Notes: generated by a model from the letters alone, not told the origin. DNA of 64,000 bases from Bacteroidota bacterium (GCA_049523215.1 JBEKNC010000002.1:127963-191962), one strand, 5' to 3'. Counted from the first letter of the stretch, positions 17,940 through 62,107 are shown. Made by a program: numbers and translations.

Positions 17940-17944
17940 AATGT

Positions 17945-18103
17945 GCGCATAACCCGCGGCTCAAGCTGACCGGATGAGCGTTAGTGCATTTTACATTGCG
18001 CGTAGAGGTTTAGTACAGAATTGAAAGTGAAGTGAATGAACTTGGTTCGTTCCGTGCAATTTGAAAGTTCACATTGTCGCAGCTTAGCGCCGGTCCATTA
18101 GGC
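17945..18103 (+). repeat. attC-like site (long variant of the family, reverse-complement orientation relative to array II)
   Basis: GCGCATAACCCGCGGCTCAAGCTGACC … GAACTTGGTTCGTT … GCAATTTGAAAGTT … CGCAGCTTAGCGCCGGTCCATTAGGC. Near-identical to the reverse complement of the 55-61 kb elements. Confidence 0.7.
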
Positions 18104-18132
18104 GGTTGCCAAAATTAATAAGGATTACACAG

Positions 18133-19032: not shown

Positions 19033-19044
19033 TGTATAGCAACT

Positions 19045-19128
19045 GCCTAACTAGGCGCTCCCGCCCAACAAGACAGCGGGGCAGGCAAGCTCGGCTTGTC
19101 CAGAAGGCGAAGCGGCCATCCGTTAGGC
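19045..19128 (+). repeat. attC-like site (short variant)
   Basis: GCCTAAC TAG GCGCTCCCGCC…GGCGGG…CAAGCTCGGCTTGT…GCGGCCATCC GTTAGGC. The termini are perfect 7-bp inverted repeats. Confidence 0.7.
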
Positions 19129-19169
19129 AGCCCTAAAAGTGGGATATCAATCAATAAAGGTGTCGTATT

Positions 19170-19448
19170 ATGATTTTCACACTCATCTATTTTTTCTTCA
19201 TCGTCTGGATAACTATTGTACTGTCTAAATCTATCAAGATAGTGCGAGAGGATCAGCGAGTTGTGATTTTTCGTTTGGGAAAGTATTTTGGTGTTGGTGG
19301 CCCAGGAATAGTTTTTATTTTACCATTTGTAGATAAAATACAAAAGGTCGATCTAAACGAGTCTTTACCAGGATGGCAAACATTACCCAAAGAACTTCTT
19401 GAAGAAAGACTGAAATCACTTGTCATCTATAAGTCAAACAGTTTTTAA
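19170..19448 (+). pseudogene. SPFH/band-7 (stomatin/HflC-like) domain protein, N-terminal fragment only
   Basis: 92 aa: TM helix followed by IVREDQRVVIFRLGKYFGVGGPGIVFILPFVDKIQKVDL, which is the start of an SPFH domain. The sequence terminates long before the domain would end. Confidence 0.5.
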
Positions 19449-19454
19449 CGGGCT

Positions 19455-19700
19455 GCCTAACCAGGCGCTCCCCGCTAATCCCGTAAAAAACACGGGACGC
19501 AAAAAACGCGAAAGCGACGGGGTTTCGCATAAAGCGCTCAACAAGCTCGGCTTGTCTGGAAGAATGCATCACAGCCGGAGCCCTGAGAATGTATCGCGCA
19601 AAGCGCGAAACAATTTCTTAAAAGTGATACAATATTTCTCAATGAGCCCACTGCAATTTACATGGCGCGCATAGGTTTAGTACAGAGAAGTTACAGACTG
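19455..19700 (+). repeat. attC-like site, rearranged or truncated
   Basis: It begins GCCTAAC CAG GCGCTCC and contains CAAGCTCGGCTTGT and the CATTTACATGGCGCGCATAGGTTTAGTACAGA block shared with the element at 17945-18103. It lacks the terminal …GTTAGGC. Confidence 0.5.
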
Positions 19701-19777
19701 GATTTAATATTGCCACAAAAAATTCTTATAAAATAAATATGCAATTGCCTAAAATATTTTAACGAAAGGATATTAAG

Positions 19778-21088: not shown

Positions 21089-21103
21089 TAAACTGCAATT
21101 GCG

Positions 21104-21194
21104 GCTGACCAGGCGCTCCCGCCTAAAAGACGGCGGGCAAGCAAGCTCGGCTTGTATAGAAGAATGCATCACGCGAGGCGGTCATGTGTTAGGC
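21104..21194 (+). repeat. attC-like site (short variant, left core degenerate GCTGAC)
   Basis: GGCTGACC AG GCGCTCCCGCC…GGCGGGCAAGCAAGCTCGGCTTGT…GGTCATGT GTTAGGC. Highly similar to the site at 19045-19128. Confidence 0.6.
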
Positions 21195-21247
21195 GGGCAG
21201 AAAAAAACTACAATTTTATCAAATATAAATTAAAAGCGAGAGGACTT

Positions 21248-21952
21248 ATGAAAGCTACACTCTATTGCTGTATGATTCTATTTATGTTTTCATGTGCCGT
21301 AAAGGCGCAGGATAGTACAAGTAATGTAAAAATAGATTCCGTGCTTTATTATCAAAAGAAGATGTTAAGTCAACAAGAAAAACTTTACAATGAAGTAGTA
21401 CGTTATAAAGAACCGCTGGAGAATAAAAAATTTGGTATCGAGATCAATCCGGCATATATGCTGTTCAGCAGTGCCCGTTCATATTTTGTGTTCAGCGGAG
21501 GATTTTCATTCTTCGATATAGACCGACACGCAGAAATTGCATGTCCAATTTTTTATCAGAACGGAGCCGGTAAAAACTCAGGAGTTCATGAATTGACGCT
21601 GTGGAATCAAGATATAGTATATCGGAAATTTTTGGGACAGCATCAGGACGGATTTTACCTTGAGGGGGGCTTACGATATACGCACATCAAAGGAGAATCT
21701 AACGATGGTGTTTCCATACTGGGAGTAAGTTTATTTTCAACATCTCCTACGTCAATAATAACCACGGATAAGCTGGGAGGGATGTTTGGCATCGGGTACA
21801 GGTATTTTTCGACATCAGGATTTTATTGGGGAACAAGTCTCGTGGTAGGGGCGTATTTTTCTGCTGATGAAAGAACAATACAAGGGATAATATTGGATGA
21901 TACAAAAACCATTTTTGATTTTGAAATACTGAAATTTGGTTATGCGTTCTAA
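21248..21952 (+). CDS. outer-membrane beta-barrel protein (cassette cargo)
   Basis: Signal peptide MKATLYCCMILFMFSCAVKAQ. Alternating amphipathic strands. C-terminal …FGYAF with a terminal Phe, typical of OMP barrels. Confidence 0.6.
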   Translation: MKATLYCCMILFMFSCAVKAQDSTSNVKIDSVLYYQKKMLSQQEKLYNEVVRYKEPLENKKFGIEINPAYMLFSSARSYFVFSGGFSFFDIDRHAEIACPIFYQNGAGKNSGVHELTLWNQDIVYRKFLGQHQDGFYLEGGLRYTHIKGESNDGVSILGVSLFSTSPTSIITTDKLGGMFGIGYRYFSTSGFYWGTSLVVGAYFSADERTIQGIILDDTKTIFDFEILKFGYAF

Positions 21953-21957
21953 CTGCG

Positions 21958-22023
21958 CCCTAACATCGGCGCTCACTCGGCTTATCCAGAAGAATGCGTC
22001 GCATTTAGGAGCTATCGTTAGGT
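21958..22023 (+). repeat. attC-like site (66 bp)
   Basis: CCCTAAC ATC GGCGCTCACTCGGCTT…GAGCTATC GTTAGGT. Confidence 0.55.
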
Positions 22024-22063
22024 GATCCGAAAACTGACCTGCATTCAAAAACAGGAAGATAAA

Positions 22064-22522
22064 ATGTCTATAAATGCAAAATACGTCCATACAAATTTGA
22101 TCGCACGCGATTGGCAAAAGCTATCGTCTTTTTATCAAGAGGTATTCGGATTCAAACCAGTTCCACCTGAGCGACATTATAAAGGTATCGACCTTGAACG
22201 TGGCACAGGTGTTCAAGGATCTGAACTTCATGGCATTCATCTACGAATGCCAGGATATGATGATAGTGGTCCGACATTGGAAATTTACTCTTACTCTATT
22301 CCAAAAGAAGGTCTAGTTCCGGCGGTCAATCGTCCTGGATTTGGACACATTGCATTATCAGTTGTTGATGTGATCAAGGCTCAAGATATCGTTTTGCAGG
22401 CAGGTGGAAAATCTGTGGGAGAAATTGTAACGTTGCAAACATCTGCAGGAGCTAAGGTAACTTGGTGCTATGTGACAGATCCTGAAGGCAATATTATCGA
22501 ATTACAATCGTGGTCAAAATAA
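22064..22522 (+). CDS. VOC-family (glyoxalase/bleomycin-resistance/dioxygenase fold) protein
   Basis: About 150 aa from MSINAKYVHTNLIARDW…FGHIALSVVDV…DPEGNIIEL, typical of VOC proteins. This is a classic cassette cargo type. Confidence 0.75.
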   Translation: MSINAKYVHTNLIARDWQKLSSFYQEVFGFKPVPPERHYKGIDLERGTGVQGSELHGIHLRMPGYDDSGPTLEIYSYSIPKEGLVPAVNRPGFGHIALSVVDVIKAQDIVLQAGGKSVGEIVTLQTSAGAKVTWCYVTDPEGNIIELQSWSK

Positions 22523-22554
22523 AAGAAGTCAATTCATCAGCAAGGAGGATTACC

Positions 22555-23979
22555 ATGAGCAGAAACTTCTTATCAACCGTGTGCTGCTTTTTTATTTTTA
22601 TAGGTACCTGTTCTCAAACACTTCTTGCTCAAACATCCGAAGGAACGCCGGCACTCACAGCCCATCAAAAATTGGCCCGCAGCATATTTCGCGAACTTAT
22701 TGAAACCAACACAACTATGAATATTGGGAGCGGGAAAGCAGCTGAAGCGATGGCTTCACGCTTGAAAGCTGCGGGCTTTTCCGATAACGATATTCAACTG
22801 GTGGGCCCACGTCCTCAGAATATGAACCTCATCGTACGCTACAAAGGCAAAGGTGCCCTTCGCCCCATTCTTTTTTTTGGGCATCTGGATGTTGTCGAAG
22901 CGCTCCGGCAGGATTGGTCGTTCGATCCGTTCGTCTTTCTTGAAAAAGACGGATTTTTTTATGGTCGCGGAACATCCGACATGAAGAACGAGGATGCAGA
23001 TATCGTCGCAAACCTTATACGCCTGAAAAGTGAAGGATTCGAGCCAAATAGAGACATCATTGTGGCTTTGACGGAACACGAAGAGGGGGGTGACGCAAAC
23101 GGTATCAAGTGGCTCCTCGCAAATCGACGTGACCTCATCGATGCAGAGTTCGCCATTAACCTTGAAGGCGGTGGAGGCGATATTAAGAGCGGCAAATACT
23201 TTCTGATGGATATACAAACGGGCGAAAAGGTCTACGTGAGCTTCCAACTCGAAGTCAAGAACAAGGGCGGTCATAGCTCTTTACCAGTGAAAGACAACGC
23301 CATCTACCGACTTGCAGCAGGACTCTCGCGCCTGGCACAATACGAATTCCCAATTAGGCTTAATGAGACCACCCGGACATTTTTTCAACGGGCAGCCAGT
23401 CAAGAAAGCGGACAGGCCGCAGCAGATATGCTAGCAATCTTGAAAATACCAATTGATACGTCTGCTTCCAATCGCCTCTGCGCGTCCTCCGCTTATTACA
23501 ATGCATTACTGCGAACGACATGTGTTGCAACGATGCTCTCAGCCGGACATGCCGAGAACGCTCTGCCTCAGACTGCCCGTGCTGTTGTCAATTGTCGCAT
23601 GCTGCCAGATGATTCTATAGAGAATGTAATCGCGACCCTGACTCGTATCCTTGCCGACAGTCAAATTGCCGTCTCGCAAATCAGCCAAATGAATTTAAGT
23701 CCTCTTTCGCCGCTCCGCAAAGACGTGATGGATAACGTCGAGAAACTCACGGCCTCGATGTGGCCGGGAGTAACAGTGACTCCCGTTATGTCCACCGGTG
23801 CATCTGATGGCAGATACCTGCGCAAGGCGGGAATCCCGGTCTATGGTGTCTCAGGCATTTTTGACGATGTTGATGACATTCGTGCACACGGTAGAGATGA
23901 GAGGATTGGCATTCAAGATTTCTACAATGGGGTCGAGTTCATGTACAGGTTTATCAAGGCTCTTACCTCGGGATCGTAG
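22555..23979 (+). CDS. secreted M20-family metallopeptidase (ArgE/DapE/carboxypeptidase G2-like)
   Basis: Signal peptide, then GHLDVV…DMKNEDADIV…EHEEGG…the dimerisation domain…HGRDERI. This pattern of M20 metal ligands supports the call. Confidence 0.85.
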   Translation: MSRNFLSTVCCFFIFIGTCSQTLLAQTSEGTPALTAHQKLARSIFRELIETNTTMNIGSGKAAEAMASRLKAAGFSDNDIQLVGPRPQNMNLIVRYKGKGALRPILFFGHLDVVEALRQDWSFDPFVFLEKDGFFYGRGTSDMKNEDADIVANLIRLKSEGFEPNRDIIVALTEHEEGGDANGIKWLLANRRDLIDAEFAINLEGGGGDIKSGKYFLMDIQTGEKVYVSFQLEVKNKGGHSSLPVKDNAIYRLAAGLSRLAQYEFPIRLNETTRTFFQRAASQESGQAAADMLAILKIPIDTSASNRLCASSAYYNALLRTTCVATMLSAGHAENALPQTARAVVNCRMLPDDSIENVIATLTRILADSQIAVSQISQMNLSPLSPLRKDVMDNVEKLTASMWPGVTVTPVMSTGASDGRYLRKAGIPVYGVSGIFDDVDDIRAHGRDERIGIQDFYNGVEFMYRFIKALTSGS

Positions 23980-24013
23980 CTTGATGATGCGAACCCAATA
24001 GCAACATATTGCG

Positions 24014-24081
24014 CCCTAATCCGGCGCTCAAGTCCCGCTATCAATATTAATTCTAATGTAGCGGGATGGCGCCTGCTAACA
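24014..24081 (+). repeat. degenerate attC-like inverted repeat
   Basis: CCCTAAT CC GGCGCTCAAGTCCCGCTA … TAGCGGGATGGCGCC TGCTAACA. The internal imperfect inverted repeat is retained and the terminal cores are decayed. Confidence 0.4.
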
Positions 24082-52993: not shown

Positions 52994-53956
52994 TCAATCC
53001 CAGCCACTTACAACATCGACAGCGATGCGGCCGTGCACAGCGCCTGACTGAAGGCGTTTGAGACCGGCGGCGACGTCCTTAATTTTCACGGTTTGAAAAA
53101 CCGGGACTTTAAGTCCATGCCTGAGCCAGCTCCCGAGCAGATCGAGGTCCTGCGCGCGTGGTTTGACGATGACGAAGTGCGCGCGAGTAGGTGTTACAAT
53201 ACTGGCAAGCTTATCCCGGAAGAATGCGGGAGTAGGCAGAGTGGTCACATAAGCGCCGCCCCTCTCGATGAGGTGCCGGCTTGCTTGCCATGAAGATGCG
53301 GCGGCAGTGTCGAAGACCAAGTTGAAGGGTCCGCTTGCGGTTTGGAGAGGAGAGACCTTCAGGCGATCGATAACCTCTTCGGCTCCGAGCTCCTTGACGA
53401 AATCCACAGCGTGTGTGGCACAGATTGCGGTCACACGGGCTCCCAGCTTGAGCGCAACCCCGACGGCAACTGAACCTACACCGCCCGAAGCGCCGATGAC
53501 GAGTACGCGTCCACTCGAAGTTAGCTTGCCGATGTCGCGCAGAGATTGAAGAGCGGTGAGACCGGCGGTGGCGCTTGCGGCAGCAATCGTATGCGCTATC
53601 CCTTCGGGTTTTTTGGCGAGCGCAGTCGCATTTGCGAGTGTGAATTCAGCGAAAGCACCGAGCCGGGTTGCACGGCCGTACGGGAGATGTCCGAAAACCT
53701 CATCGCCCCGCTCAAGACCGGAAACATTTCTCCCCAGCGCATCGATGACGCCCGAGAAATCGAAGCCCACGACCATGGGGAAGACGCGGGCGTGGAGGAT
53801 TTTCGTCTCGCCTGTAACAGATTTGAAGTCGGCAGGATTGAGCGCCGATGCGTGGACACGTATACGAACCTGACCGGGACCCGGTTCGGGCAGCGGCAGA
53901 TCTACGATCCTCAGTGATTCGAGAGGGCCGTAAGAAGGAGAAACGAGTGCGCGCAT
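52994..53956 (-). CDS. zinc-type alcohol dehydrogenase / NADPH:quinone oxidoreductase (MDR superfamily)
   Basis: Rossmann GxGxxG (VIGASGGVGSVAV) and GroES-like N-terminal domain. Confidence 0.85.
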   Translation of the reverse strand: MRALVSPSYGPLESLRIVDLPLPEPGPGQVRIRVHASALNPADFKSVTGETKILHARVFPMVVGFDFSGVIDALGRNVSGLERGDEVFGHLPYGRATRLGAFAEFTLANATALAKKPEGIAHTIAAASATAGLTALQSLRDIGKLTSSGRVLVIGASGGVGSVAVGVALKLGARVTAICATHAVDFVKELGAEEVIDRLKVSPLQTASGPFNLVFDTAAASSWQASRHLIERGGAYVTTLPTPAFFRDKLASIVTPTRAHFVIVKPRAQDLDLLGSWLRHGLKVPVFQTVKIKDVAAGLKRLQSGAVHGRIAVDVVSGWD

Positions 53957-54126
53957 AATTGACCAATCCTTTCATTCATGATGATTTGTATGGTTTGTAA
54001 TATGGACATTTTTCTCATAGAGAATCAATTACTATGGAAACATATCTTTCTTACCACTTGTTCCTTCGGGAAAATCGCGGAACGCGATCTGGACATATTT
54101 GTGGTGGTAAGCGGACAAGTGGGCAA

Positions 54127-54327
54127 TTAATCATTCTCCTTCCGCAGTGTCGCCTTCCATCCGTCTTCCGGATCGAGCCTAACATCGACCTGCCACGGTC
54201 GACAACATACCGGGCAGTCCTGCACGAAGGACTGGCGACTTCCCCCGCTCTCATCGACGTCCAGCTCTACGTCCTCGCCGCAGTAGGGACAGTTTAGTGG
54301 AACGGGTTCAATCATCTGATTCTCCAC
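54127..54327 (-). CDS. CPXCG-motif cysteine-rich zinc-ribbon protein
   Basis: 66 aa with CPYCG…and…CPVCC, two CxxC pairs. Confidence 0.65.
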   Translation of the reverse strand: MENQMIEPVPLNCPYCGEDVELDVDESGGSRQSFVQDCPVCCRPWQVDVRLDPEDGWKATLRKEND

Positions 54328-54338
54328 GGCGGGTTAGC

Positions 54339-54472
54339 ACCTAACGATGGCCACTCCGCCAAACAACCGGCGGACAAGCCGAGCTTGTCTGCCCCGCTGT
54401 ATTTTTGTCCGTTTCGATATTCATATCGAAACGCGATCTCGACGAAGTCGGACGGGGAGCGCCTGGTTAGGC
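54339..54472 (-). repeat. attC-like site E1 (distal end of array II)
   Basis: ACCTAAC…CAAGCCGAGCTTGTC…hairpin GTTTCGATAT/ATATCGAAAC…GGAGCGCC TG GTTAGGC. Confidence 0.65.
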
Positions 54473-54503
54473 AGCGACATAATCGAATATCATGTAAATT
54501 GAT

Positions 54504-55058
54504 TTAACAAATTTTAATCGTTTCGCTGCATCTTTCTCCACCGAGTATGATTGTTTCATCTATTATAACCTTGACTTTTTCCTTAAATAAGGTTCCAAAG
54601 AATTCTTGCATAAAACTTTTACAACAATAGTTGCATAATGATTTTTGGGGCTGTTGCCCCTGTGCATAAGCACAATCACATGGCAATTTTCGCCCAATCA
54701 CTTTTAGTACCGACTTTTCAGAATCATACTGAATTTTTTCCCAACGGCTGGAATTTCCATTGTTTACAAATTCTATTAAACCGGTCAGGGTCATACTTTT
54801 AATCCATTTCACAGCATTTGTGCAATAGAAACATTCGTAACCGAGTTTGCCGAATACTTTTTGTTTTATTGACTCATCCATGTCACCGTCGACAAAACTT
54901 AAAAGTTTTGTAATTTGCTCACGGTGTGCATCTCTGACAGATTTGTTGTTGTTTGTTTTGCTTACCTGGGCGTGGAGTTGTTTATCCGGAAGCGACAAGG
55001 ATAAAAGGGAAAGCACACCACAGGCTGAGCATTTTTGAATAAATTCTTTTCTTTCCAT
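54504..55058 (-). CDS. hypothetical Cys-rich secreted protein (cassette 1)
   Basis: I placed the start at MERKEF… so that it clears the attC. Signal-like segment. Many Cys (CDCAY…CNYCC). Confidence 0.5.
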   Translation of the reverse strand: MERKEFIQKCSACGVLSLLSLSLPDKQLHAQVSKTNNNKSVRDAHREQITKLLSFVDGDMDESIKQKVFGKLGYECFYCTNAVKWIKSMTLTGLIEFVNNGNSSRWEKIQYDSEKSVLKVIGRKLPCDCAYAQGQQPQKSLCNYCCKSFMQEFFGTLFKEKVKVIIDETIILGGERCSETIKIC

Positions 55059-55091
55059 AGAATTTCTCTTTAATTGTTTATAATTGTTGCC

Positions 55092-55247
55092 GCCTAACGG
55101 ACTGGCGCTAAGCTGCGGCGTGACCAACTTTCAATTTGCACTAAACGAAATGAGTTCACATTGATAGCTTTCAAAATGTACTAAACCGTTGTGAGCCATG
55201 TTTAACGTACCCAGCTGGCAACCGTCAGCTTGAGCGCCTGGTTATTA
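55092..55247 (-). repeat. attC-like site E2 (right core degenerate GTTATTA)
   Basis: GCCTAAC GGACTG GCGCTAAGCTGCGGCGTGACCAACTTTCAATTTGCACTAAACGAAATGAGTTCA…CAGCTTGAGCGCC TG GTTATTA. Confidence 0.7.
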
Positions 55248-55322
55248 CCAAAAAGGAACCTCCCGATTATGTACATTAATGAGTCTCTAGTTCAACAATA
55301 TTCACAATCTAAGGAGGTTCCC

Positions 55323-55430
55323 ATGTATTACTCAGGTATCGATTTGCACTCTGATAATTGCTATATCACCACTGTTGACGATACTGGCGCTGTCATCTCT
55401 TGTATAACAGAGACGGAGTTATTATTTTGA
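55323..55430 (+). pseudogene. IS110-family transposase N-terminal remnant (35 codons)
   Basis: Strong RBS (TAAGGAGG). MYYSGIDLHSDNCYITTVDDTGAV resembles the IS110 DEDD-transposase N-terminus (…GIDLHK…V..D..G.V). A stop follows after 35 aa. Confidence 0.35.
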
Positions 55431-55565
55431 GCCCATACACCGATCATACAGAGACTTCCAAGAATGCCAAAGAAAAGAAATATGTATTTCATTTTTATGC
55501 TTAAAGAATGAACAGAAATGATTTTATAAAATATCTTTTTGAAATAACACAACGACACTACTATC

Positions 55566-57320
55566 TCAGTTTGTCGCTCCTTGAATCAATGCATCCAACG
55601 CTTGCTGATCCAATACAGTGTTATTATTTCTATTTAAAAGGCTACCAGTGTCCCAGTAGTACGGTAAAAGTCCATTGGCTTTTGCCTGCTTTGTTACATA
55701 TTTAAAGTAATATGCCCTTGATGCTAAATGCAAGGTTAATGCATCGCCAGTTAAAGAGGAACGGCGTATTGCAGAAAACTCGCCCAATACGACAGGAATA
55801 CCTTTGTCAACAAATTTGGTTTTCATTGATTGGAAATAGCTATCGACACTTGATTCTTCGCCCCAGGTGGCATTACGTGTTGGATCTGTTGTGGAATGAT
55901 AATCTTTACCCCAGTAATAGAACATTTTGCCCCAGCTGGCATCTGCATCCAGCCCGCAAAAATTCCATGGTGTGTAATAATGTATTTCAACCATCATGCG
56001 GTTCGAAATTTTATCGGTGGGCAGAGTCTGCATCAATTGGTTAGTCTTATCAATATCAGTTGATGGGCCTTGAACGACTAGGACCCGGTAACTATTTTTT
56101 CCACCCGTCGACCGAACCGCATTGATAAATGTCTGGTGGTACGACATTAATACCGCCATTTGTGTTGCATCTGATACATTCGGTTCATTAGCACCTGCAA
56201 ACAGTAAATGCTCATCGAAACCGCGCATTTGAGTGGCTATTTGTTCCCAGAATGCTCGCTGCTTCGCATTGTTCTCTGCCTGTTTAGCTACTGTGCAATT
56301 GTTTTCCAGCCATCCTCCATCCCAGTGAATATTAAGAAGAACATACAAGTCATTATCAACACAATATTGTATTACGTCCTTGACCCTATCGAGCCAATCT
56401 GTTTTTAATTGTGCAGTTGAACTATTTGCCATGTATTGGTTCCAGGAACAAGGTAGACGAACGGCAGTGAAGCCGCTTTGTTTCACAAATCCAATAAAGG
56501 ATTTTGTGATGCGTGGATTGCCCCAAGCCGTTTCTCCTCCAATAGCTTCCAAGGTGTTACCAATGTTCAAGCCTAGAGTAATTTTAGCAGCGAGTTCAAC
56601 AGCAGTGCTGCTCATCCCCGCTGCATCAGGAGCTATTGGTGCAGTATTATAGTTTGGATAGATATCCGCTGTCTGCGTTACGGAAATTTGTACCGGGGGA
56701 GTATATTGTGCACTCACCGTGATAATTGCTGACCGTAAATTACTGCCGGTATTTTCTGATGATGTTACAGTAATTGAAGTGTTGCCTTTAGCACCCGTAC
56801 TCTGACTATATTGCAGCCAGTCGACGGTAGAGCTAATATTCCATTGTGGTGCATCGGTGCTGATACTTATGGTAGAAGCACTGCTTGCTTTTGTAAGGTT
56901 GATGTATGTGGTGTCTGTTGAAAGAGAATAGAGATAATCAGATGAAGGCTGCGATACAACCACTTGCACCGCTTTGGCATTACCGGCAGTGATTGTGAGT
57001 ATGATGCTGCGTGGTACAATGGTTTTGGAATTTACACTCAATGTCACTGTGTCCGTTTTTTCCGTTCCGCCTGTACTTGATAAAACCAACCAATCAGAAG
57101 CAGGTTTGCTGATGTTCCATGAACCGGCGCCAGTATTAATTATGATGGTGTCGCTGCCACCTTCTTTTTGAAAATTTATTGTATCGGGACTAACAGTCAG
57201 GATATTTACTTCTTCCTTATCGGGACTAACAGTCAGGGGTTCTTCTTTCTTGCATCCGATCAAATAAATTAAGCTAAGAACAAAAATACTAAAACTTATA
57301 TATTTATTAAATCTTTTCAT
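55566..57320 (-). CDS. lipoprotein glycoside hydrolase family 5 (endoglucanase-like) with N-terminal BACON-like domains (cassette 2)
   Basis: Lipobox …LIGCKK. Two roughly 80-aa BACON-like repeats (WNIS…DWL…). GH5 catalytic domain with acid/base in GANEPN and nucleophile in VLGEFS. Confidence 0.8.
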   Translation of the reverse strand: MKRFNKYISFSIFVLSLIYLIGCKKEEPLTVSPDKEEVNILTVSPDTINFQKEGGSDTIIINTGAGSWNISKPASDWLVLSSTGGTEKTDTVTLSVNSKTIVPRSIILTITAGNAKAVQVVVSQPSSDYLYSLSTDTTYINLTKASSASTISISTDAPQWNISSTVDWLQYSQSTGAKGNTSITVTSSENTGSNLRSAIITVSAQYTPPVQISVTQTADIYPNYNTAPIAPDAAGMSSTAVELAAKITLGLNIGNTLEAIGGETAWGNPRITKSFIGFVKQSGFTAVRLPCSWNQYMANSSTAQLKTDWLDRVKDVIQYCVDNDLYVLLNIHWDGGWLENNCTVAKQAENNAKQRAFWEQIATQMRGFDEHLLFAGANEPNVSDATQMAVLMSYHQTFINAVRSTGGKNSYRVLVVQGPSTDIDKTNQLMQTLPTDKISNRMMVEIHYYTPWNFCGLDADASWGKMFYYWGKDYHSTTDPTRNATWGEESSVDSYFQSMKTKFVDKGIPVVLGEFSAIRRSSLTGDALTLHLASRAYYFKYVTKQAKANGLLPYYWDTGSLLNRNNNTVLDQQALDALIQGATN

Positions 57321-57383
57321 TGTTTTCTCGTCCTTTGATATCAATATCTCATATTTTCCATCGAAACAAATTTCTATTTTAAA

Positions 57384-57592
57384 AGCGTAAGCGGCCTAAC
57401 GGATCGGCGCTAAGCTGCGGCGTGACCAACTTTCAATTTGTACAAAACGAAATGAGTTCATGCTAGTACTTTCAATTTTGTACTGACCTATGCACGCCAT
57501 GCTTAACGCACCCAACTGGCAACCGTCAGCTAGCTTGTTGAGCGCTTTCTGCGAAATCCCGCTGTTTTCTAGCGGGAAGCGCCTGGTTAGGC
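57384..57592 (-). repeat. attC-like site E3
   Basis: GCCTAAC GGATCG GCGCTAAGCTGCGGCGTGACCAACTTTCAATTTGTACAAAACGAAATGAGTTCATGCT…hairpin CCCGCTGTTTTCTAGCGGG…AGCGCC TG GTTAGGC. Confidence 0.75.
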
Positions 57593-57616
57593 CGCAAGTG
57601 GTGATAATAATAAATT

Positions 57617-58252
57617 TTATAGCGAGTACTGAACACCAACCATCAATCCACCAAACCCAACTTTCCCTGATGAGAGAAATAATTCGGATCGTAGACTGAC
57701 TGGTTCGACAACATCAATTGCAAAACCAATACCGAAAGCAATATAGAAACCCTTATCAGTACGCGATGATTTGTATCTGATTATTGTATTACCATGGTCA
57801 ATCGATCGATATTCTTCACTTGGAAAATATTGATACCAATATCCCGGACGCAAAAGTAGATACGGACGAATAGGAAAGGATAGTGGAGCTATGATTCGCA
57901 ATCCACCCGAAAGATCAAATCGATGTGAAGCCCCCGACGGAATTCTCGGATATACTAAATAATCCGGTGGAAATCCTTCATTATATTCATGAACAAAAAT
58001 CAAATGATCATAACGGAACAAGCCGATTAATTCTAAACTAGGAGTATTTGTTGTAGTTAAACCCAAGCCTACTGTCCAATTAGGTACATAAGCAGCAAAA
58101 TCACTTCTTGGTGGCCCAATATAAACAATCAGTCCTGTTTGTAATTCAAGATTTGTTGACCTTTGACCATAGGAAACAAATGGAGTACAAATTACGATGG
58201 AGACAATAGCCAATAGTAATAAATATGATTTCATAAGTTTAGTATTCTTCAA
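57617..58252 (-). CDS. outer-membrane beta-barrel (porin-family-like) protein (cassette 3)
   Basis: Signal peptide. Alternating beta-strand pattern. Gly/aromatic-rich, 211 aa. Confidence 0.5.
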   Translation of the reverse strand: MKNTKLMKSYLLLLAIVSIVICTPFVSYGQRSTNLELQTGLIVYIGPPRSDFAAYVPNWTVGLGLTTTNTPSLELIGLFRYDHLIFVHEYNEGFPPDYLVYPRIPSGASHRFDLSGGLRIIAPLSFPIRPYLLLRPGYWYQYFPSEEYRSIDHGNTIIRYKSSRTDKGFYIAFGIGFAIDVVEPVSLRSELFLSSGKVGFGGLMVGVQYSL

Positions 58253-58267
58253 TATACAAAAACACTA

Positions 58268-58435
58268 TTAACTTGCGGCCTAACGGACGGGCGCTAAGCT
58301 GCCACGTTGATAATTTTCGTAATGCAACAAACGAAATGAGTTCATGCTGTCAATTAAATTATTAAGCACAAATACTCTAAGCGCCATGTTAATTCGTAGT
58401 AAGCTCATCTGGTCAGCTTGAGCGCCTGGTTAGGT
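58268..58435 (-). repeat. attC-like site E4
   Basis: GCCTAAC GGACGG GCGCTAAGCTGCCACG…AACGAAATGAGTTCATGCT…GCTTGAGCGCC TG GTTAGGT. Confidence 0.75.
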
Positions 58436-58445
58436 GCCATTTGCT

Positions 58446-59507
58446 TTATTTAGTTTTCGCAAGAGTACCATGTGCAACACCTCTTGTTTTACCATCGATG
58501 ATAAGGAAAACATCACTTTGGAACACAGCGCAATCATAAAATGTATCAGCTTCGTAGAGTGATTGAATATCCGAACCGTTGTAATGTCCCAATATACACT
58601 TCTGATAATTCCCATGGTAAGCAACCCATGCAAATATATCTTTTTCATTTCTTCCGAATAGCGCACCAATAGTATAATCGGGATTAGAGTACCAAACACT
58701 AAAATCTGTTCCTGAATATTTCCAAATTGTATTTTTGACTCCTGCAGTAAAATATACCCTACCATCAACTTCGTAAGCAGTGCGCTGTTCACTTTTGCTT
58801 GAGAAGATTTCACGGACATTATTTGTTCCATCAAATTCATAAAGTTTTTCAATGAATCCAGTAATGGTCACGGGATTAGTTGTCGTGTCATAAAGAACTG
58901 TTTCACCAGAAAGATAATATTTTCCAGTTTCATTTGAGCTCTTTACAATCTTGAAAAAACTTGCTGTGATATTTGGAATGTCAAGAAAAGACCATTTCGT
59001 TCCATCATATTTAAGTATGACTGCCTTTCCCGAAGTATTTGGATTGCCTACACCTCCAACCGCAAAAACATTTTGAGGAGAGTCGCCCCAAATATCAGAA
59101 ATATAAGTAAGTGAATAACCTGACAAATGAAAATCACCAAACAAGCTCCAATTGGCTCCTTCATAGTGATAAATTGGTCCGCCAGGCGAAGTACCAATCC
59201 AGACATCACTACTTGAAAAACCAAATACAGAACTTAAATTCGCTCCAGCAAGTTGACCAGTTGTTGTCCAATTGGAACCATTGAAGTGCCAAATTCCTGT
59301 AGTTCCAACAGCCCAAACATCACTTGGTGAATTTCCCCAAATTCTATCTAAATGTTGGAATGGGTCTATATGAATTGTGTCGACTTTCCATGTATAATCT
59401 CTTCGTCCAGTTACTATTTGTTCTTGCGGAGCAACGATATCTTTTTTGCAACTTAAAATGATTACGGAACATAAAAGTAGTATCACTATTTTAAATTTCA
59501 TGTTCAT
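58446..59507 (-). CDS. beta-propeller lipoprotein (BNR/Ycf48-like repeats) (cassette 4)
   Basis: Lipobox (…IILSCKK). Repeated …W(A/I)VGT…G.I..(Y/F).G..W… blades. Confidence 0.55.
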   Translation of the reverse strand: MNMKFKIVILLLCSVIILSCKKDIVAPQEQIVTGRRDYTWKVDTIHIDPFQHLDRIWGNSPSDVWAVGTTGIWHFNGSNWTTTGQLAGANLSSVFGFSSSDVWIGTSPGGPIYHYEGANWSLFGDFHLSGYSLTYISDIWGDSPQNVFAVGGVGNPNTSGKAVILKYDGTKWSFLDIPNITASFFKIVKSSNETGKYYLSGETVLYDTTTNPVTITGFIEKLYEFDGTNNVREIFSSKSEQRTAYEVDGRVYFTAGVKNTIWKYSGTDFSVWYSNPDYTIGALFGRNEKDIFAWVAYHGNYQKCILGHYNGSDIQSLYEADTFYDCAVFQSDVFLIIDGKTRGVAHGTLAKTK

Positions 59508-59541
59508 CTTTGAGCACATACAATCTTCAATTTCAAATGGC

Positions 59542-59750
59542 ACCTAACGGATCGGCGCTAAGCTGCGGCGCTGATAATTTTCAAAATGCACAAAACGAAA
59601 CAAGTTCCATGTCAAAAGATTTATCATTTGCACGCGACCTCTGCTCGCCATGAATTTTGCAGCGCGCTCATTGAGATTAAGTATCACGCTTCGCGTGATT
59701 CAGTTATCTGGACAAGCCGAACTTGAGCGCCTGGTTAGGCAGCAACTTAC
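59542..59750 (-). repeat. attC-like site E5
   Basis: ACCTAAC GGATCG GCGCTAAGCTGCGGCG…AACGAAACAAGTTCCATG…hairpin ATCACGCTTCGCGTGAT…ACTTGAGCGCC TG GTTAGGC. Confidence 0.75.
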
Positions 59751-59765
59751 TGTATATATCGTCAA

Positions 59766-60392
59766 TCACTTCATCCCCGATTGTCTACGGCGAAGGATCA
59801 TTAGCACGATGGGCAATGACACAGCAATCAGTGACACGAAATTAATTCCAAATATCCGAGGTACGGTTTTCATGTCCAGAAAGATAAAACTAAGCAACAA
59901 GAGAATAAGAATTACAGAATAGGCAATGAATCTGCGATCAGGTTCTGTTTCAATTGGTGCCCACACGCTTAGGGCAGACCGTATTTGATCGTACCCCATA
60001 AGTTCCTTGGGCACAAGAATCCATTGAAATTTGTTATTTGATTCTATTCGTAATGCGCGATTGGAAATATCAACAATGCGGGACACATCGGAACGATGTA
60101 TGACAGTTTGAAACGTGCCAACTTTTTTGCTGCTGATACTGTCCTGTTCGAGAGTAACCTGGAGTGAAGCTTCAGCTCGCGCCATCGGCATAATCTTGAC
60201 GAAGCCTGCCACCGCAATGGCAATAGCGCAAGGAACAATGATGAATGGAAAGACGATAATTGGAAAGGGATCCTGAAGATAGCTTGTGACCATTAATACG
60301 GTTACTACGGATCCGATTAAGGCAAACACCTTGGTGGCAAAGCGGCGCTTTATTTGTTCTGACTGCTCTGTTGAGAATTGGAATGTCGGCAT
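59766..60392 (-). CDS. hypothetical membrane protein (cassette 5)
   Basis: I placed the start at MPTFQF… so that it clears the attC. Three or four TM helices. Confidence 0.5.
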   Translation of the reverse strand: MPTFQFSTEQSEQIKRRFATKVFALIGSVVTVLMVTSYLQDPFPIIVFPFIIVPCAIAIAVAGFVKIMPMARAEASLQVTLEQDSISSKKVGTFQTVIHRSDVSRIVDISNRALRIESNNKFQWILVPKELMGYDQIRSALSVWAPIETEPDRRFIAYSVILILLLLSFIFLDMKTVPRIFGINFVSLIAVSLPIVLMILRRRQSGMK

Positions 60393-60412
60393 ATTCTTAA
60401 CCTCTTGAGTTG

Positions 60413-60639
60413 CCACCTAACGGATGGCAACTAAGCTGCGGCAACGAGAAGCCGCAATTTTCTGAAAACGAACCAAGTTCATACTGATAAGTTTATTATT
60501 AAACATCTAAACCTCTATTAGCCATACTTAACGCACCACGCTCATTCAAATTTAGTATCGCGCTTTGCGCGATTCAATTATCTGGACAAGCCGAGCTTGC
60601 CTGCCCCGCTGTTTTCTAGCGGGGAGCGCCTGGTTAGGC
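60413..60639 (-). repeat. attC-like site E6 (longest, 227 bp)
   Basis: ACCTAAC GGATGG CAACTAAGCTGCGGCAACG…AACGAACCAAGTTCATACT…ATCGCGCTTTGCGCGAT…CCCCGCTGTTTTCTAGCGGGG AGCGCC TG GTTAGGC. Confidence 0.75.
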
Positions 60640-60680
60640 AACCACTACCGCAACAATCTCTACACAACATTAAAAGTTAC

Positions 60681-60953
60681 TCAATGAGAATTATTTTGAG
60701 TGCTATCCTTCAGCCGCAGGAGAGGTGTATATAACTCACGGTTCAGAGAATCGAGTTTTCTCTGACCCATTTCTTCTTTAGCTGGTTTATGTTTTTTGAG
60801 TTTCTGCTTAGGTGCTTGTATCTTCGATTTATTTCTCTGAGCACCTGTGGTATCTGACGATGCAGGTGTGGACTTCTTTTCCTGTGCGGCATTTGCCGGT
60901 AGGATACAGAAGGTGAACCCAAAAGCCAGAACGATTATAATAATTTTTTTCAT
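60681..60953 (-). CDS. small secreted Lys-rich protein (cassette 6)
   Basis: Signal peptide MKKIIIIVLAFGFTFCILPANA, then a low-complexity K/Q-rich region. Confidence 0.5.
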   Translation of the reverse strand: MKKIIIIVLAFGFTFCILPANAAQEKKSTPASSDTTGAQRNKSKIQAPKQKLKKHKPAKEEMGQRKLDSLNRELYTPLLRLKDSTQNNSH

Positions 60954-60976
60954 ATATATTCTCCAGACAGGTGGTT

Positions 60977-61134
60977 GCCTAACGGATGGCGGCTAAGCTG
61001 CCGCACTGAATATTATCAAAATACACAAAACGAAAAAAGTTCATGCTGAAAAGTTTATTATTAAAAACTAAAACCTATGCAAGCCATGCTTAACGTCGTA
61101 CGCTCATTCGGTCAGCTTGAGCCGCTGGTTAGGG
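60977..61134 (-). repeat. attC-like site E7
   Basis: GCCTAAC GGATGG CGGCTAAGCTGCCGC…AACGAAAAAAGTTCATGCT…CAGCTTGAGCCGC TG GTTAGGG. Confidence 0.75.
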
Positions 61135-61143
61135 CGCACGTTA

Positions 61144-61746
61144 TTAATGCAAGTAATTAAATGACAATGGACTATACTTAAAATTGTGATGCCAATACAT
61201 TTTTATATTTGGCGAATTTAATATTCGATTGTTAGCGTGAATATCTTTAATCGAAAACACAATGCTGTCCTTCATTTTATAGCTAACATCGTATAGCAAC
61301 ACAATGTGTTTTTCATTGGGCGTTATAAATACTGTATCACTAATTGAGCAAGCCCTTGATTGCTTACCGCTTGTATTTGTATATATTTCGCGAGCATTTA
61401 TTATGGTGGGGGAGTTTATACAAGAATTACAAAGGGATACTTTTTTCAAGTCCATTTTCATAGTATCCATGTATGTCGAGAGTATAAGATCAACTTCTAC
61501 TGGCCCCAAATCATGCGGCGCGATAAGACCAAATGGAAATAATGGTACTAACGGCGGACCAATCGCAAAGAATGCATCAGACGACATGGAAAGACGGATA
61601 TTTAAGTTATCTTTTGAGCATTGAATAAAGTCTTGTGATTTGCCGGAATTATTTCCTTCAGGATTCCATTCATTATGACGTTCTATATTAGAACATCCAT
61701 ATAACATAAAAGATAAAACAAGAAGTATAAATAATATGCTTTTCAT
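61144..61746 (-). CDS. hypothetical lipoprotein (cassette 7, closest to the integrase-proximal end; AT-rich)
   Basis: Lipobox …MLYGCSN. 200 aa with no recognisable family. Confidence 0.5.
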   Translation of the reverse strand: MKSILFILLVLSFMLYGCSNIERHNEWNPEGNNSGKSQDFIQCSKDNLNIRLSMSSDAFFAIGPPLVPLFPFGLIAPHDLGPVEVDLILSTYMDTMKMDLKKVSLCNSCINSPTIINAREIYTNTSGKQSRACSISDTVFITPNEKHIVLLYDVSYKMKDSIVFSIKDIHANNRILNSPNIKMYWHHNFKYSPLSFNYLH

Positions 61747-61754
61747 TTTATTTG

Positions 61755-61800
61755 CCGTGCGCCCTAACTACTGATTAGATAGACTCAGTCTATCTTTTGC
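61755..61800 (-). repeat. terminal core (GTTAGGG / CCCTAAC) followed by a 17-bp palindrome; end of array II, possible attI-like remnant
   Basis: GCGCCCTAAC TACTGATTA GATAGACTCAGTCTATC TTTTGCGC. Only the core half of an attC is present, followed by the perfect palindrome GATAGACT C AGTCTATC. Confidence 0.4.
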
Positions 61801-62107
61801 GCTTATAAGCATGATATATAGACTTTGTGTTTAATATTGTATTTAATTTCTCAAGAACTGTCATTGGCGATCCCCCAATGGTAATAATCAGAGATTTGAG
61901 ATTTTTGCTGGTATAATATACATGTTTATCGATGGGAGGGCAAGGTTAAAAGTAACAACATCCTAAACGGGTGATAGAAGAAAGAAAAGTTCGAAGGGAA
62001 TTTGTAAAAGAACTTAACAAATTGGTAATGATTTGTTCATCGTTTGGAAAAGCGGATTTGCTATTTTATGGCATCAATAATCAACAACAATTTACAAGGA
62101 GGTTCAA

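What the first reader, a model, noticed from the sequence alone, without database searches (positions are those of the whole stretch)
54339..61768. Seven-cassette array bounded by eight attC-like sites: an integron-type cassette array in a T9SS-bearing (FCB-group) genome, with no integrase in view
Seen in sequence: between 54.3 and 61.8 kb each gene is separated from the next by a 134-227-bp element. On the plus strand each element starts GCCTAAC or ACCTAAC (RYYYAAC, the inverse core), continues with GGATCG-GCGCTAAGCTGCGGCG, and ends GCTTGAGCGCC-TG-GTTAGGC (GTTRRRY, the core). The two termini are exact 7-bp inverted repeats. The inner boxes (GCGCTAAGC / GCTTGAGCGC) form a second imperfect inverted pair. 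The central region varies in length but keeps a block AACGAAATGAGTTCATGCT. All seven cargo ORFs are on the same strand as the elements. Each ORF starts 10-45 nt after a GTTAGGC core and is followed by its own element, which is exactly the ORF-attC cassette architecture. Established knowledge: integron attC sites are defined by R''(RYYYAAC)-L''…L'-R'(GTTRRRY) imperfect palindromes. GCCTAAC/GTTAGGC are the canonical class-1-type cores. Sedentary chromosomal integrons carry species-specific, highly similar attC families such as the Vibrio cholerae repeats. Inference: this is a CALIN or the cassette part of a chromosomal integron. Integrons are mostly described in Proteobacteria, so a homogeneous attC family in this lineage, carrying mostly secreted or surface proteins (GH5 cellulase, OMP barrels, beta-propeller lipoprotein), is notable.
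Basis: partly seen in the sequence, partly recalled or inferred. Interest (0 to 1): 0.92.

Follow-up and report, generated by a model that had tools for sequence, protein, structure and literature searches.

The report
Integrase-less integron cassette array (Ignavibacteriota)
This is a genuine integron-type array of seven mobile gene cassettes in the chromosome of an uncultured Ignavibacteriota-like bacterium; it has its own insertion site but no integrase gene nearby, and such arrays are already known from this group.

Summary
Window 54339-61134 carries seven repeats of 134-225 nt, one after each of seven minus-strand genes. Each repeat has CCTAAC/GTTAGG termini, a covarying inner stem and two bulged bases on one arm. 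That is the attC architecture.

The "eighth site" (61762-61768) is not an attC. It is the crossover core of an attI-like site, TCTAATCA-N3-G|TTAGGG, which closely resembles the sites found beside true integron integrase genes in related genomes.

The same repeat termini occur in at least 118 genome blocks, mostly Ignavibacteriota/Bacteroidota MAGs. They are always on one strand per block. In seven blocks they lie beside integron integrases; four were scanned and match TIGR02249 (446-486 bits, cut-off 265).

A covariance model built only from these repeats finds textbook class 1 attC sites.

No integrase or remnant lies in the 75 kb I could read, so this is a CALIN that keeps an attI.

Two more arrays exist: window 16789-24078, inverted, and one beyond the pst operon. 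An attC-targeting IS110-family remnant sits at 55248-55397.

Integrons in Ignavibacteriae/Chlorobi are already published, and the attC termini are shared across soil phyla. Novelty is therefore modest: a new member of a known kind.

The parts
61762..61829 (-). attI-like array head. The top strand reads AAGTCTATATATCATGC...ATAGACTGAGTCTATCTAATCAGTA-G|TTAGGG. The crossover core CCCTAAC lies at 61762-61768 on the + strand.
   Evidence: It matches the attI simple site GTCTAATCA-N2-3-G|TTAGG found next to intI in L039, L015 and L119. The motif occurs at 13 places in about 870 kb, always at the head of an attC array. About 70 nt resemble the array heads of L079 and L082; L079 has an intI remnant beside it.
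61144..61746 (-). Cassette 1 ORF (200 aa; 187 aa as called by the source). It has a lipoprotein-type N-terminus and no Pfam hit.
60977..61134 (-). attC of cassette 1 (158 nt, long type). The folding bottom strand is the window + strand.
   Evidence: The DNA fold shows a 6-bp R box, a GGA bulge, an 8+6+3 bp stem and bulged G and T on the 3' arm. nhmmer E=5e-39. Compensatory GCGGCT/AGCCGC change relative to the other copies.
60681..60953 (-). Cassette 2 ORF (90 aa, signal peptide, no Pfam hit).
60415..60639 (-). attC of cassette 2 (225 nt). It is a hybrid: a long-type R'/L' end joined to a short-type R''/L'' end, with an extra CCCCGCTG..CAGCGGGG hairpin.
59766..60416 (-). Cassette 3 ORF (216 aa; hydrophobic N-terminal region suggests a membrane protein; no Pfam hit).
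59542..59740 (-). attC of cassette 3 (199 nt).
   Evidence: E=1.6e-45
58446..59543 (-). Cassette 4 ORF (365 aa; 351 aa as called). It has a lipoprotein-type signal. The only Pfam hit is a weak, sub-threshold one to a beta-propeller domain.
58278..58435 (-). attC of cassette 4 (158 nt, long type).
57617..58252 (-). Cassette 5 ORF (211 aa, signal peptide, no Pfam hit).
57394..57592 (-). attC of cassette 5 (199 nt, with an extra hairpin module near the R'' end).
55566..57344 (-). Cassette 6 ORF: a lipoprotein with a BACON domain and a GH5 cellulase domain.
   Evidence: Pfam PF00150 E=3.6e-54 and PF13004 E=1.4e-11
55248..55397 (+). Remnant of the left end of an attC-targeting IS110/IS1111-family insertion sequence. 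It keeps about 25 transposase codons (MYYSGIDLHSDNCYI...) and sits inside the R'' box of the GH5 cassette's attC.
   Evidence: 78.6% identity over 308 nt (attC plus IS end) to L039, where the intact ORF has PF01548 and PF02371. Four identical copies and one 86.5% copy lie in blocks of chromosome OY969585.1; blastn shows the attC-IS junction repeated in L009, L029, L039 and L043.
55092..55247 (-). attC of cassette 6 (156 nt). Its R'' box is truncated to TAAC by the IS remnant.
54504..55127 (-). Cassette 7 ORF (207 aa; 184 aa as called; no Pfam hit).
54339..54472 (-). attC of cassette 7 (134 nt, short type). It is the last attC of the array.
52994..54327 (-). Distal flank with no attC: a CPXCG zinc-ribbon gene (54127-54327) that starts 12 nt after the last core, and a GC-rich Zn-dependent alcohol dehydrogenase gene (52994-53956). 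They may be old attC-less cassettes or the native flank.
   Evidence: Pfam. GC is 0.58 against about 0.43 for the surroundings. The flank is 90-92% identical in the fen_1299 MAG (L076), where the dehydrogenase is partly deleted and the cassettes differ.
16789..24078 (+). Second array, inverted relative to the first. It has an attI-like head at 16789-16806 (ACCTAATCACAG-G|TTAGGC). Its attCs are at 17944-18104, 19045-19128, 19455-19692 (R' end deleted), 21104-21193, 21958-22024 and a degenerate terminal one at 24011-24078. Its cassettes include a T9SS Por_Secre_tail/GLUG protein and a glyoxalase plus M20 peptidase pair.
   Evidence: CM R1 hits 19046-19127 on the - strand at E=3.8e-5. The glyoxalase is 87% identical to a cassette flanked by two attCs in L120.

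Best explanation
Window 54339-61829 is the cassette array of a chromosomal integron that keeps its attI-like insertion site but has no adjacent integrase gene. In the usual terms it is a CALIN with an attI head.

Reading the minus strand from 61829 downwards, it consists of an attI-like site followed by seven cassettes, each made of one ORF and one attC.

**Shown**
- The elements have the attC architecture.
- The window plus strand is the strand that carries the extrahelical bases. It is therefore the recombinogenic bottom strand, and the genes lie on the top strand.
- The same element family lies next to integron integrases in related genomes (four confirmed as TIGR02249).
- A close relative carries different cassettes at the same chromosomal site.
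- One gene cassette of the second array in this window is shared, as a cassette, with another genome.

**Inferred from established integron biology**
- Cassettes were inserted one at a time at the G|TT of the attI site by an IntI tyrosine recombinase. The integrase recombines the folded bottom strand of a circular cassette's attC with double-stranded attI.
- Cassettes can be excised by attC x attC recombination.
- Any present-day mobility must be catalysed in trans by an IntI encoded elsewhere in the genome, or by an incoming one.
- Expression would come from a promoter upstream of attI or from promoters inside the cassettes.
For: **attC architecture**
- CCTAAC/GTTAGG R box, a 3-nt GGA bulge, an L stem GGCGCT-AAGCTG / CAGCTT-[G]-AGCGCC and a second bulged T. 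Both bulged bases are on the 3' arm of the + strand.
- An extrahelical base is present in 84 of 84 unique sites (G in 74).

**Covariation**
- On 48 diverse sites, 88.6% of cells are paired against 84.6% in shuffles (0 of 500 shuffles reach the observed value).
- Both-side changes number 57 against 27.7 in shuffles (0 of 500). Slid registers give at most 49% paired.
- GC<->CG<->AT swaps occur at three stem positions in 169 unique sites.

**Arrangement**
- There is one element per gene, all in one orientation, and copies occur only inside arrays.
- In all 118 related blocks the motif is on one strand only. The longest ORF between repeats is on the top strand in 112 of 158 intervals.

**Integrase association**
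- tblastn finds IntI homologues beside the motif in L011 (partial), L015, L025, L039, L062, L095 and L119.
- The four scanned (L015, L025, L039, L119) match TIGR02249 at 446-486 bits, against a cut-off of 265.

**attI**
- All three arrays of this contig start with the motif found at genuine intI-adjacent attI sites.

**Reciprocal test**
- A covariance model built only from these elements finds the blaVIM-2 attC (31.2 bits, E=1e-7) and the aac(6')-Ib attCs (E=0.003 and 0.016) of class 1 integrons, on the correct strand.

**Mobility**
- The glyoxalase cassette of the second array is shared with L120.
- L076 has the same flank at 90% nt identity but different cassettes.

**Associated element**
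- An attC-specific IS110-family remnant is present.
Against: - No integrase or integrase remnant lies in the window or within about 1 kb to the left and 9.5 kb to the right of it. Recombination activity in this genome is therefore unproven.
- IntegronFinder's attC model and HattCI could not be run.
- Several sites look non-functional: 55092-55247 has its R'' box cut by an IS, 19455-19692 lacks its R' end, and 24011-24078 is degenerate.
- Sites of 225-266 nt exceed the usual attC length range.
- Whole-element folding z-scores are modest (-1.7), because the AT-rich centre is unstructured.
- The spacer geometry differs from class 1 attCs by two extra bases on the R'/L' arm.
- My own model gave one false positive at E=0.003.
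Confidence: 0.9

Rival explanations
1. Fossil array. It is integron-derived, but the genome has no working integrase, so the cassettes are now fixed chromosomal genes and the attC sites are decaying relics.
For: - There is no intI in the 75 kb examined.
- Some sites are disrupted or truncated.
- Related genomes show array heads with intI reduced to remnants (L079, L083) or with no intI in the 2-5.6 kb of upstream sequence available (L004, L078, L082, L118).
Against: - Most R and L boxes are intact and still covary.
- A relative with 90% nt identity in the flank has different cassettes at the same site, which means turnover after their divergence.
- Some attCs are 91-94% identical to copies in other MAGs.
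- The related complete chromosome OY969585.1 has both an intI and several separate arrays.
Confidence: 0.3
2. REP/BIME- or MITE-like intergenic palindromic repeats, or transcription terminators, unrelated to integrons.
For: - The elements are imperfect palindromes in intergenic positions.
- Some carry internal GC-rich hairpins.
Against: - Copies occur only in tandem gene-by-gene arrays and never elsewhere in the other roughly 50 kb of the window.
- All 118 related blocks have a single orientation.
- Termini are RYYYAAC/GTTRRRY with strand-specific bulges.
- Integron integrases are adjacent in relatives.
- The terminator-like scan finds 12 sites against 7.3 +/- 2.3 in shuffles, and only about four of them lie inside the repeats.
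Confidence: 0.03
3. The cassettes were inserted at a non-classical genomic site (attG-type secondary insertion), not at a true attI. The array would then never have belonged to an integron platform.
For: - attG insertion needs only a GWT motif, and it has been proposed as one origin of small CALINs (bioRxiv 10.1101/2022.09.11.507474).
- No intI remnant lies next to any of the three array heads.
Against: - All three heads share a motif of 12 or more nt with genuine intI-adjacent attI sites.
- The head of array 1 shares about 70 nt of architecture with the heads of L079 and L082; L079 has an intI remnant beside it.
- By my own calculation, only 1-2 chance occurrences of the motif are expected in a genome of about 3.6 Mb.
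Confidence: 0.07

Closest known systems
CALINs and sedentary chromosomal integrons, as defined by IntegronFinder (Cury et al. 2016, PMC4889954; Neron et al. 2022, PMC9024848)
   Same: A cluster of two or more attC sites with co-oriented cassettes in a chromosome and no intI within reach. The cassettes mostly have unknown function. The attC family is homogeneous within a lineage. Integrons are already recorded in Chlorobi and Ignavibacteriae.
   Different: - The array keeps a recognisable attI-like head.
- Three such heads, of three sequence variants, lie within 75 kb.
- Several attCs are 225-266 nt, above the default IntegronFinder size limit (my recollection is 200 nt).
Class 1 integron attC (59-be) sites, for example those of the blaVIM-2 and aac(6')-Ib cassettes on plasmid pJB12
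   Same: They share the R''/R' cores RYYYAAC/GTTRRRY, the L box TAAGC/GCTT-G-A with the extrahelical G at the same position, the bottom-strand orientation relative to the ORF, and 8 nt between GCTTG and GTTAG on the R''/L'' arm. A model built from the window's family detects them.
   Different: The other arm carries two extra bases, giving a GGA bulge, and the model alignment needs a 2-nt deletion to fit. The central region here is 60-200 nt and AT-rich with conserved blocks, instead of a short variable stem.
Vibrio cholerae repeats (VCRs) of the superintegron
   Same: Long attC sites whose whole sequence, not just the ends, is conserved within a lineage. This comparison rests on my own knowledge and was not tested here.
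   Different: VCR arrays form one very large array next to intIA. Here there are several short arrays without intI. The host is an FCB-group bacterium, and many cassettes carry T9SS sorting domains.
IS1111-attC group of insertion sequences (named in PMC11187229 and PMC3001079; original description recalled from Tetu & Holmes 2008)
   Same: A DEDD (IS110/IS1111-type) transposase element found repeatedly at one fixed position inside attC sites.
   Different: In the window only about 150 nt of one end survive. Membership of the IS1111-attC subgroup, which is defined by subterminal inverted repeats, was not tested.

Membership tests
Integron gene-cassette array (attC sites) | Each site is an imperfect palindrome ending in R'' RYYYAAC and R' GTTRRRY | tested here: met
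   Six of seven sites have CCTAAC...GTTAGG termini. The seventh has its R'' cut by an IS remnant.
Integron gene-cassette array (attC sites) | An inner L''/L' stem with extrahelical bases on the recombined (bottom) strand, supported by covariation | tested here: met
   Bulged G and T lie on the 3' arm of the + strand. An extrahelical base is present in 84 of 84 sites. Covariation exceeds all 500 shuffles and all slid registers.
Integron gene-cassette array (attC sites) | One attC downstream of each ORF, all co-oriented, with ORFs on the top strand | tested here: met
   7 of 7 in this array. In relatives, 118 of 118 blocks have the motif on one strand only, and the longest ORF is on the top strand in 112 of 158 intervals.
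Integron gene-cassette array (attC sites) | Detection by the IntegronFinder attC covariance model or by HattCI | not testable with these tools
   Neither model is available here, and Rfam has no attC family (one search found only a tRNA). As a substitute, model R1, built from these sites, detects textbook class 1 attCs at E=1e-7 to 0.016, with one false positive.
Integron gene-cassette array (attC sites) | The same attC family is linked to an integron integrase (IntI, TIGR02249) in genomes | tested here: met
   tblastn finds IntI homologues next to the motif in L015, L025, L039, L062, L095, L119 and (partial) L011. The four scanned (L015, L025, L039, L119) score 446-486 bits against a cut-off of 265. 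This holds for relatives, not for this contig stretch.
Integron gene-cassette array (attC sites) | Cassettes behave as mobile units: the same cassette in different arrays, and different cassettes at the same site | tested here: met
   The glyoxalase cassette is 87% identical to one flanked by two attCs in L120. L076 shares the flank at 90% nt identity but not the cassettes.
Complete integron | An intI gene adjacent to attI and the array | tested here: not met
   tblastn with IntI1, XerD and four Ignavibacteriota IntI sequences found nothing below E=0.27 in the window, L001 or L002. The genes next to the array head are a porin and pstSCAB-phoU.
Complete integron | An attI site at the array head | tested here: met
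   Met by sequence similarity only: TCTAATCA-N3-G|TTAGGG resembles the attI next to intI in L039, L015 and L119. Binding and recombination were not tested.
Complete integron | A Pc promoter reading into the cassettes | tested here: inconclusive
   One sigma-70-like match lies at 61864-61836 on the - strand (10 of 12 positions). Matches in the region are not more frequent than in shuffles, and the promoter consensus of this lineage is unknown.
[quoted passage not shown] | Two or more attC sites clustered, with no intI nearby | tested here: met
   There are seven attCs. No intI lies within more than 9 kb on the attI side, and none anywhere in the rest of the window on the other side.
REP/BIME/MITE dispersed repeats | Copies scattered at many intergenic sites, in both orientations, independent of gene orientation | tested here: not met
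   Copies occur only inside arrays. Each block has a single orientation.

The most novel reading that the evidence does not exclude
These Ignavibacteriota-like genomes may run a distributed integron. Several separate cassette arrays, each with its own attI variant and most without an integrase gene, would be scattered over the chromosome and served in trans by one or a few IntI enzymes.

The evidence that leaves this open:
- This contig has three such arrays in 75 kb.
- The related chromosome OY969585.1 has the motif in at least five separate regions.
- Many cassettes carry T9SS sorting domains or other secretion signals, so the arrays could supply a lineage-adapted, swappable secretome that includes a GH5 cellulase.
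Probability: 0.3. Interest if true: 0.55.

Novelty: new member of a known kind. Interest (0 to 1): 0.33.

Why it matters
This adds a well-resolved example of integron cassette arrays in an uncultured FCB-group (Ignavibacteriota-like) soil or peat bacterium.

- It defines a recognisable attI motif for this lineage: TCTAATCA-N2-3-G|TTAGG.
- It shows that CALINs here can keep their attI.
- Some attCs are long enough (225-266 nt) that I expect default detection settings to miss them.
- The cargo is rich in secreted, lipoprotein and T9SS-sorted proteins, including a BACON-GH5 cellulase. That bears on how polysaccharide-degrading Bacteroidota relatives vary their surface and secreted proteins.

None of this overturns current understanding of integrons.

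Tried and rejected
- **Rfam scan of the window.** It found only a tRNA. Rfam has no attC family, so the result is uninformative.
- **Covariance model R1 on the window.** It found only the 84-nt site at 19046-19127. The 134-225-nt sites exceed the maximum hit length of a 67-position model, so this is a technical limit and not evidence against them.
- **The 320-aa ORF at 52994-53956.** It is integrase-sized and was checked as a possible IntI. It is a Zn-dependent alcohol dehydrogenase.
- **Exact-sequence look-ups of two cassette proteins.** These were meant to find the cassettes in other arrays. One returned only this contig plus a near-duplicate assembly, and the other was not on record.
- **Promoter and terminator scan.** Promoter matches are below the shuffle mean. 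Terminator-like matches number 12 against 7.3 +/- 2.3, and only about four lie inside the repeats. No consistent promoter or terminator inside the attCs can be claimed.
- **Synteny of the pst/porin flank.** No homologues were found in the fetched blocks, so I cannot tell whether this location is conserved.
- **Walking further along contig k141_92839 to look for intI.** This was not possible.
Full report
**1. Observation**

The region contains seven repeats on the plus strand. Their coordinates are 54339-54472, 55092-55247, 57394-57592, 58278-58435, 59542-59740, 60415-60639 and 60977-61134. Their lengths are 134 to 225 nt.

Most of them start RCCTAACGGA-N-GGCGCTAAGCTG and end CAGCTTGAGCGCCTGGTTAGGC. 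The 14-mer AGCGCCTGGTTAGG, allowing up to 2 mismatches, occurs 12 times in the window against 0.17 expected, and none of 100 shuffles reached 12. A profile and blastn searches with the repeats find copies only at 17.9-22.0 kb and 54.3-61.1 kb.

The seven ORFs between the repeats are all on the minus strand. The eighth "site" (61762-61768) is only a CCCTAAC core.

**2. Are the repeats attC sites?**

*Folding.* I folded the repeats as single-stranded DNA. The plus strand of the long-type copies pairs CCTAAC with GTTAGG. It leaves GGA unpaired on the 5' arm, then forms an 8-bp, a 6-bp and a 3-bp stem. These stems are separated by a bulged G and a bulged T, both on the 3' arm.

Strand-specific extrahelical bases are what mark the recombined bottom strand of attC sites (established knowledge of attC structure). 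Here that strand is the one opposite the genes, which is the canonical arrangement.

*Covariation.* From those blocks I extracted 169 unique arm pairs.
- Three stem positions that neither search pattern fixed swap GC, CG and AT together.
- Partner shuffles never reach the observed pairing.
- On 48 diverse sites the formal count gives 88.6% paired cells against 84.6% in shuffles (0 of 500).
- Both-side changes number 57 against 27.7 in shuffles (0 of 500).
- Slid registers give at most 49% pairing.
- A bulged base at the G position is present in 84 of 84 sites.
- A large sub-family has a tandem G.A/A.G mismatch in place of two pairs.

*Reciprocal test.* IntegronFinder's model could not be run. 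Instead I built a covariance model (R1) from these sites alone and searched two annotated class 1 integrons fetched through IntI1. The results:
- It found the blaVIM-2 attC at 31.2 bits, E=1e-7.
- It found the aac(6')-Ib attCs at E=0.003 and 0.016.
- It found the aac(3)-Ia and aac(6')-Il attCs more weakly.
- All of these were on the bottom strand.
- There was one false positive at E=0.003.
- The alignments need a 2-nt deletion in the GGA spacer. The geometry therefore differs slightly from class 1 attCs on the R'/L' arm, while the arm carrying the bulges has the same spacing.

**3. Distribution argues against a REP/MITE family**
- In the window the copies lie only in arrays.
- In all 118 related blocks the motif is on one strand only.
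- In 112 of 158 inter-repeat intervals the longest ORF is on the opposite (top) strand. It is on the bottom strand in 22 intervals, and 24 are ambiguous.

**4. Link to integrases**

tblastn with IntI1 found homologues of 45-54% identity beside the motif in seven blocks, six of them full-length and one (L011, Haliangiales) partial. The blocks come from MAGs labelled Ignavibacteriota/Bacteroidota, Pyrinomonadaceae, Haliangiales and delta-proteobacterial.

The four scanned with NCBIfam match the integron-integrase model TIGR02249 at 446-486 bits, against a cut-off of 265. Both the divergent arrangement (L039, L015, L062) and the same-orientation "inverted integrase" arrangement (L025) occur.

In the window, L001 and L002 no integrase or remnant is detectable. 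Together they cover record positions 180,902-255,485 of the 255-kb contig ena:ERZ27250059:k141_92839. The best E-value was 0.27.

**5. The array head is an attI-like site**

Next to intI in L039, L015 and L119 the first cassette is preceded by GTCTAATCA-N2-3-G|TTAGG. The window array begins ATCTAATCAGTA-G|TTAGGG.

The pattern [CT]CTAATCA-N2-3-GTTA occurs at only 13 distinct places in about 870 kb. Each time there are attCs downstream in the right orientation.

About 70 nt of the window's head resemble the heads in L079 and L082 (AAGTCTATAT..ATAGAC-N3-GTCTATCTAATCA).
- L079 has a truncated intI next to its head, and L083 keeps only about 25 terminal intI codons.
- L004, L078, L082 and L118 have heads with no intI in the 2-5.6 kb of upstream sequence available.

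Integrase-less arrays that keep attI are therefore common in this group. At least some of them arose by loss of intI, which is the origin proposed for CALINs (PMC4889954). Insertion at a non-classical attG site needs only a GWT motif (10.1101/2022.09.11.507474) and explains the shared 12-70 nt less well.

**6. More arrays than reported**

*Second array.* It lies at 16789-24078 in the opposite orientation. It has:
- an attI-like head, ACCTAATCACAG-G|TTAGGC;
- five attCs and a degenerate terminal one;
- cassettes that include a T9SS Por_Secre_tail/GLUG protein and a glyoxalase plus M20 peptidase pair.

*Third array.* It has six cassettes and starts beyond the porin-pstSCAB-phoU block that follows the window end. 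It spans L001 15645-20261, equivalent to window positions of about 68.0-72.7 kb. Its head reads GTCTAATCATA-G|TTATAC, and its last attC is truncated against the phoU stop codon.

The two arrays inside the window point towards each other across about 30 kb. That segment contains a tRNA gene and genes shared at about 70% nt identity with a related MAG.

**7. Evidence for cassette mobility and decay**

*Mobility*
- The glyoxalase gene (22022-22522) is 87% identical to a cassette flanked by two attCs in another genome.
- The Stordalen fen MAG fen_1299 (L076) is 90-92% identical to the window over the distal flank (52479-53289 and 54242-54345). It carries different cassettes next to that flank.

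*Decay*
- The attC of the GH5 cassette is interrupted in its R'' box by about 150 nt of the left end of an IS110-family element.
- Intact, identical copies of that element sit at the same attC position in several blocks of chromosome OY969585.1. That is the behaviour known for the IS1111-attC group (named in PMC11187229).
- Some attCs are hybrids of long-type and short-type modules. This would fit cassette loss by recombination between neighbouring attCs, which is an inference.

**8. Cargo**

Six of the seven ORFs start with a signal peptide, a lipoprotein box or a hydrophobic stretch that suggests membrane segments. One is a BACON-GH5 cellulase. T9SS C-terminal sorting domains recur in cassettes of about 40 related blocks.

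**9. Comparison with what is known, and novelty**

The host is Ignavibacteriota-like, judged by its closest relatives. Complete integrons in Chlorobi and Ignavibacteriae, and CALINs in general, are already published (PMC9024848; PMC4889954).

The R/L-box termini are shared with MAGs of many soil phyla, including two labelled archaeal. Only the AT-rich central block (AACGAAA..GTTCAT) is restricted to the Ignavibacteria-like group.

The finding is a correct identification of a known kind of element. The points beyond the textbook are:
- the attI-like heads without intI;
- three arrays in 75 kb;
- attCs up to 266 nt;
- the attC-targeting IS.

**10. Verdict**
- Confidence that this is an integron cassette array of the CALIN type with an attI-like head: 0.9.
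- Whether it is still mobilised in trans or is a fossil is open, at roughly 0.55 to 0.3 on present evidence.
- Interest: 0.33.

Noticed in passing
window 16789-24078: A second cassette array of the same attC family lies in inverted orientation. It has its own attI-like head (16789-16806), five attCs (one lacking its R' end) and a degenerate terminal attC at 24011-24078, after a glyoxalase plus M20 peptidase gene pair.
   Followed up: yes
L001 15645-20261 (equivalent to window positions of about 68046-72662, beyond the window end): A third array of six cassettes (DUF6196, DsrE-like, Por_Secre_tail and small ORFs) has a head reading GTCTAATCATA-G|TTATAC. Its last attC is truncated right at the phoU stop codon, so the porin-pstSCAB-phoU block sits between two arrays.
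   Followed up: partly
window 55248-55397: This is a remnant of the left end of an IS110/IS1111-family element inserted in the R'' box of an attC. Four identical intact copies and one 86.5% copy lie in blocks of the related chromosome OY969585.1, and the attC-IS junction recurs in L009, L029, L039 and L043.
   Followed up: yes
window 50701-50759 and 62009-62067: A 59-nt direct repeat (80% identity; AGAACTTAACAAATTGGTAATGA..GTTCAT) lies upstream of two unrelated plus-strand genes: a TPR-like gene, and the small ORF ahead of the porin/pst operon. It may be a shared regulatory or promoter element.
   Followed up: no
window 52958-52989: A perfect 32-nt palindrome (TTGTAGGGACGTATAG/CTATACGTCCCTACAA) lies between the convergent response-regulator and alcohol dehydrogenase genes. 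It is conserved in the fen_1299 MAG (L076) and looks like a bidirectional terminator.
   Followed up: no
window 52994-53956: The Zn-dependent alcohol dehydrogenase gene has GC 0.58 against about 0.43 for its surroundings, and it is partly deleted in the close relative L076. It may be an old, attC-less cassette or some other horizontally acquired gene.
   Followed up: partly
window 8001-9000 (ORF 7963-9123): There is a sharp GC dip to 0.29 over an Orn/DAP/Arg decarboxylase gene, while the neighbouring genes are at 0.44-0.49. This suggests separate horizontal acquisition.
   Followed up: no
loci L102, L120, L055, L116, L084, L106, L027 (CAWGZY010000005.1, positions 1-72000): One related MAG contig carries the attC motif in seven of the nine 8-kb blocks covering its first 72 kb. 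This would be a very large sedentary array for an FCB-group genome.
   Followed up: no
L054 1-178 compared with L039 6415-6600 (both from OY969585.1): The same attI region (84% identity over 176 nt, and identical over the last 39 nt) occurs twice in one complete chromosome, 3.3 Mb apart. One copy is next to intI. The other lies at a block edge, so its upstream side could not be read.
   Followed up: partly
window 60415-60639 and 57394-57592; L001 16182-16447 and 18783-19032: Several attCs are mosaics of long-type and short-type modules with extra GC-rich hairpins, and they reach 225-266 nt. This suggests fusion of neighbouring attCs after cassette loss. I expect default attC size limits to miss them.
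   Followed up: partly
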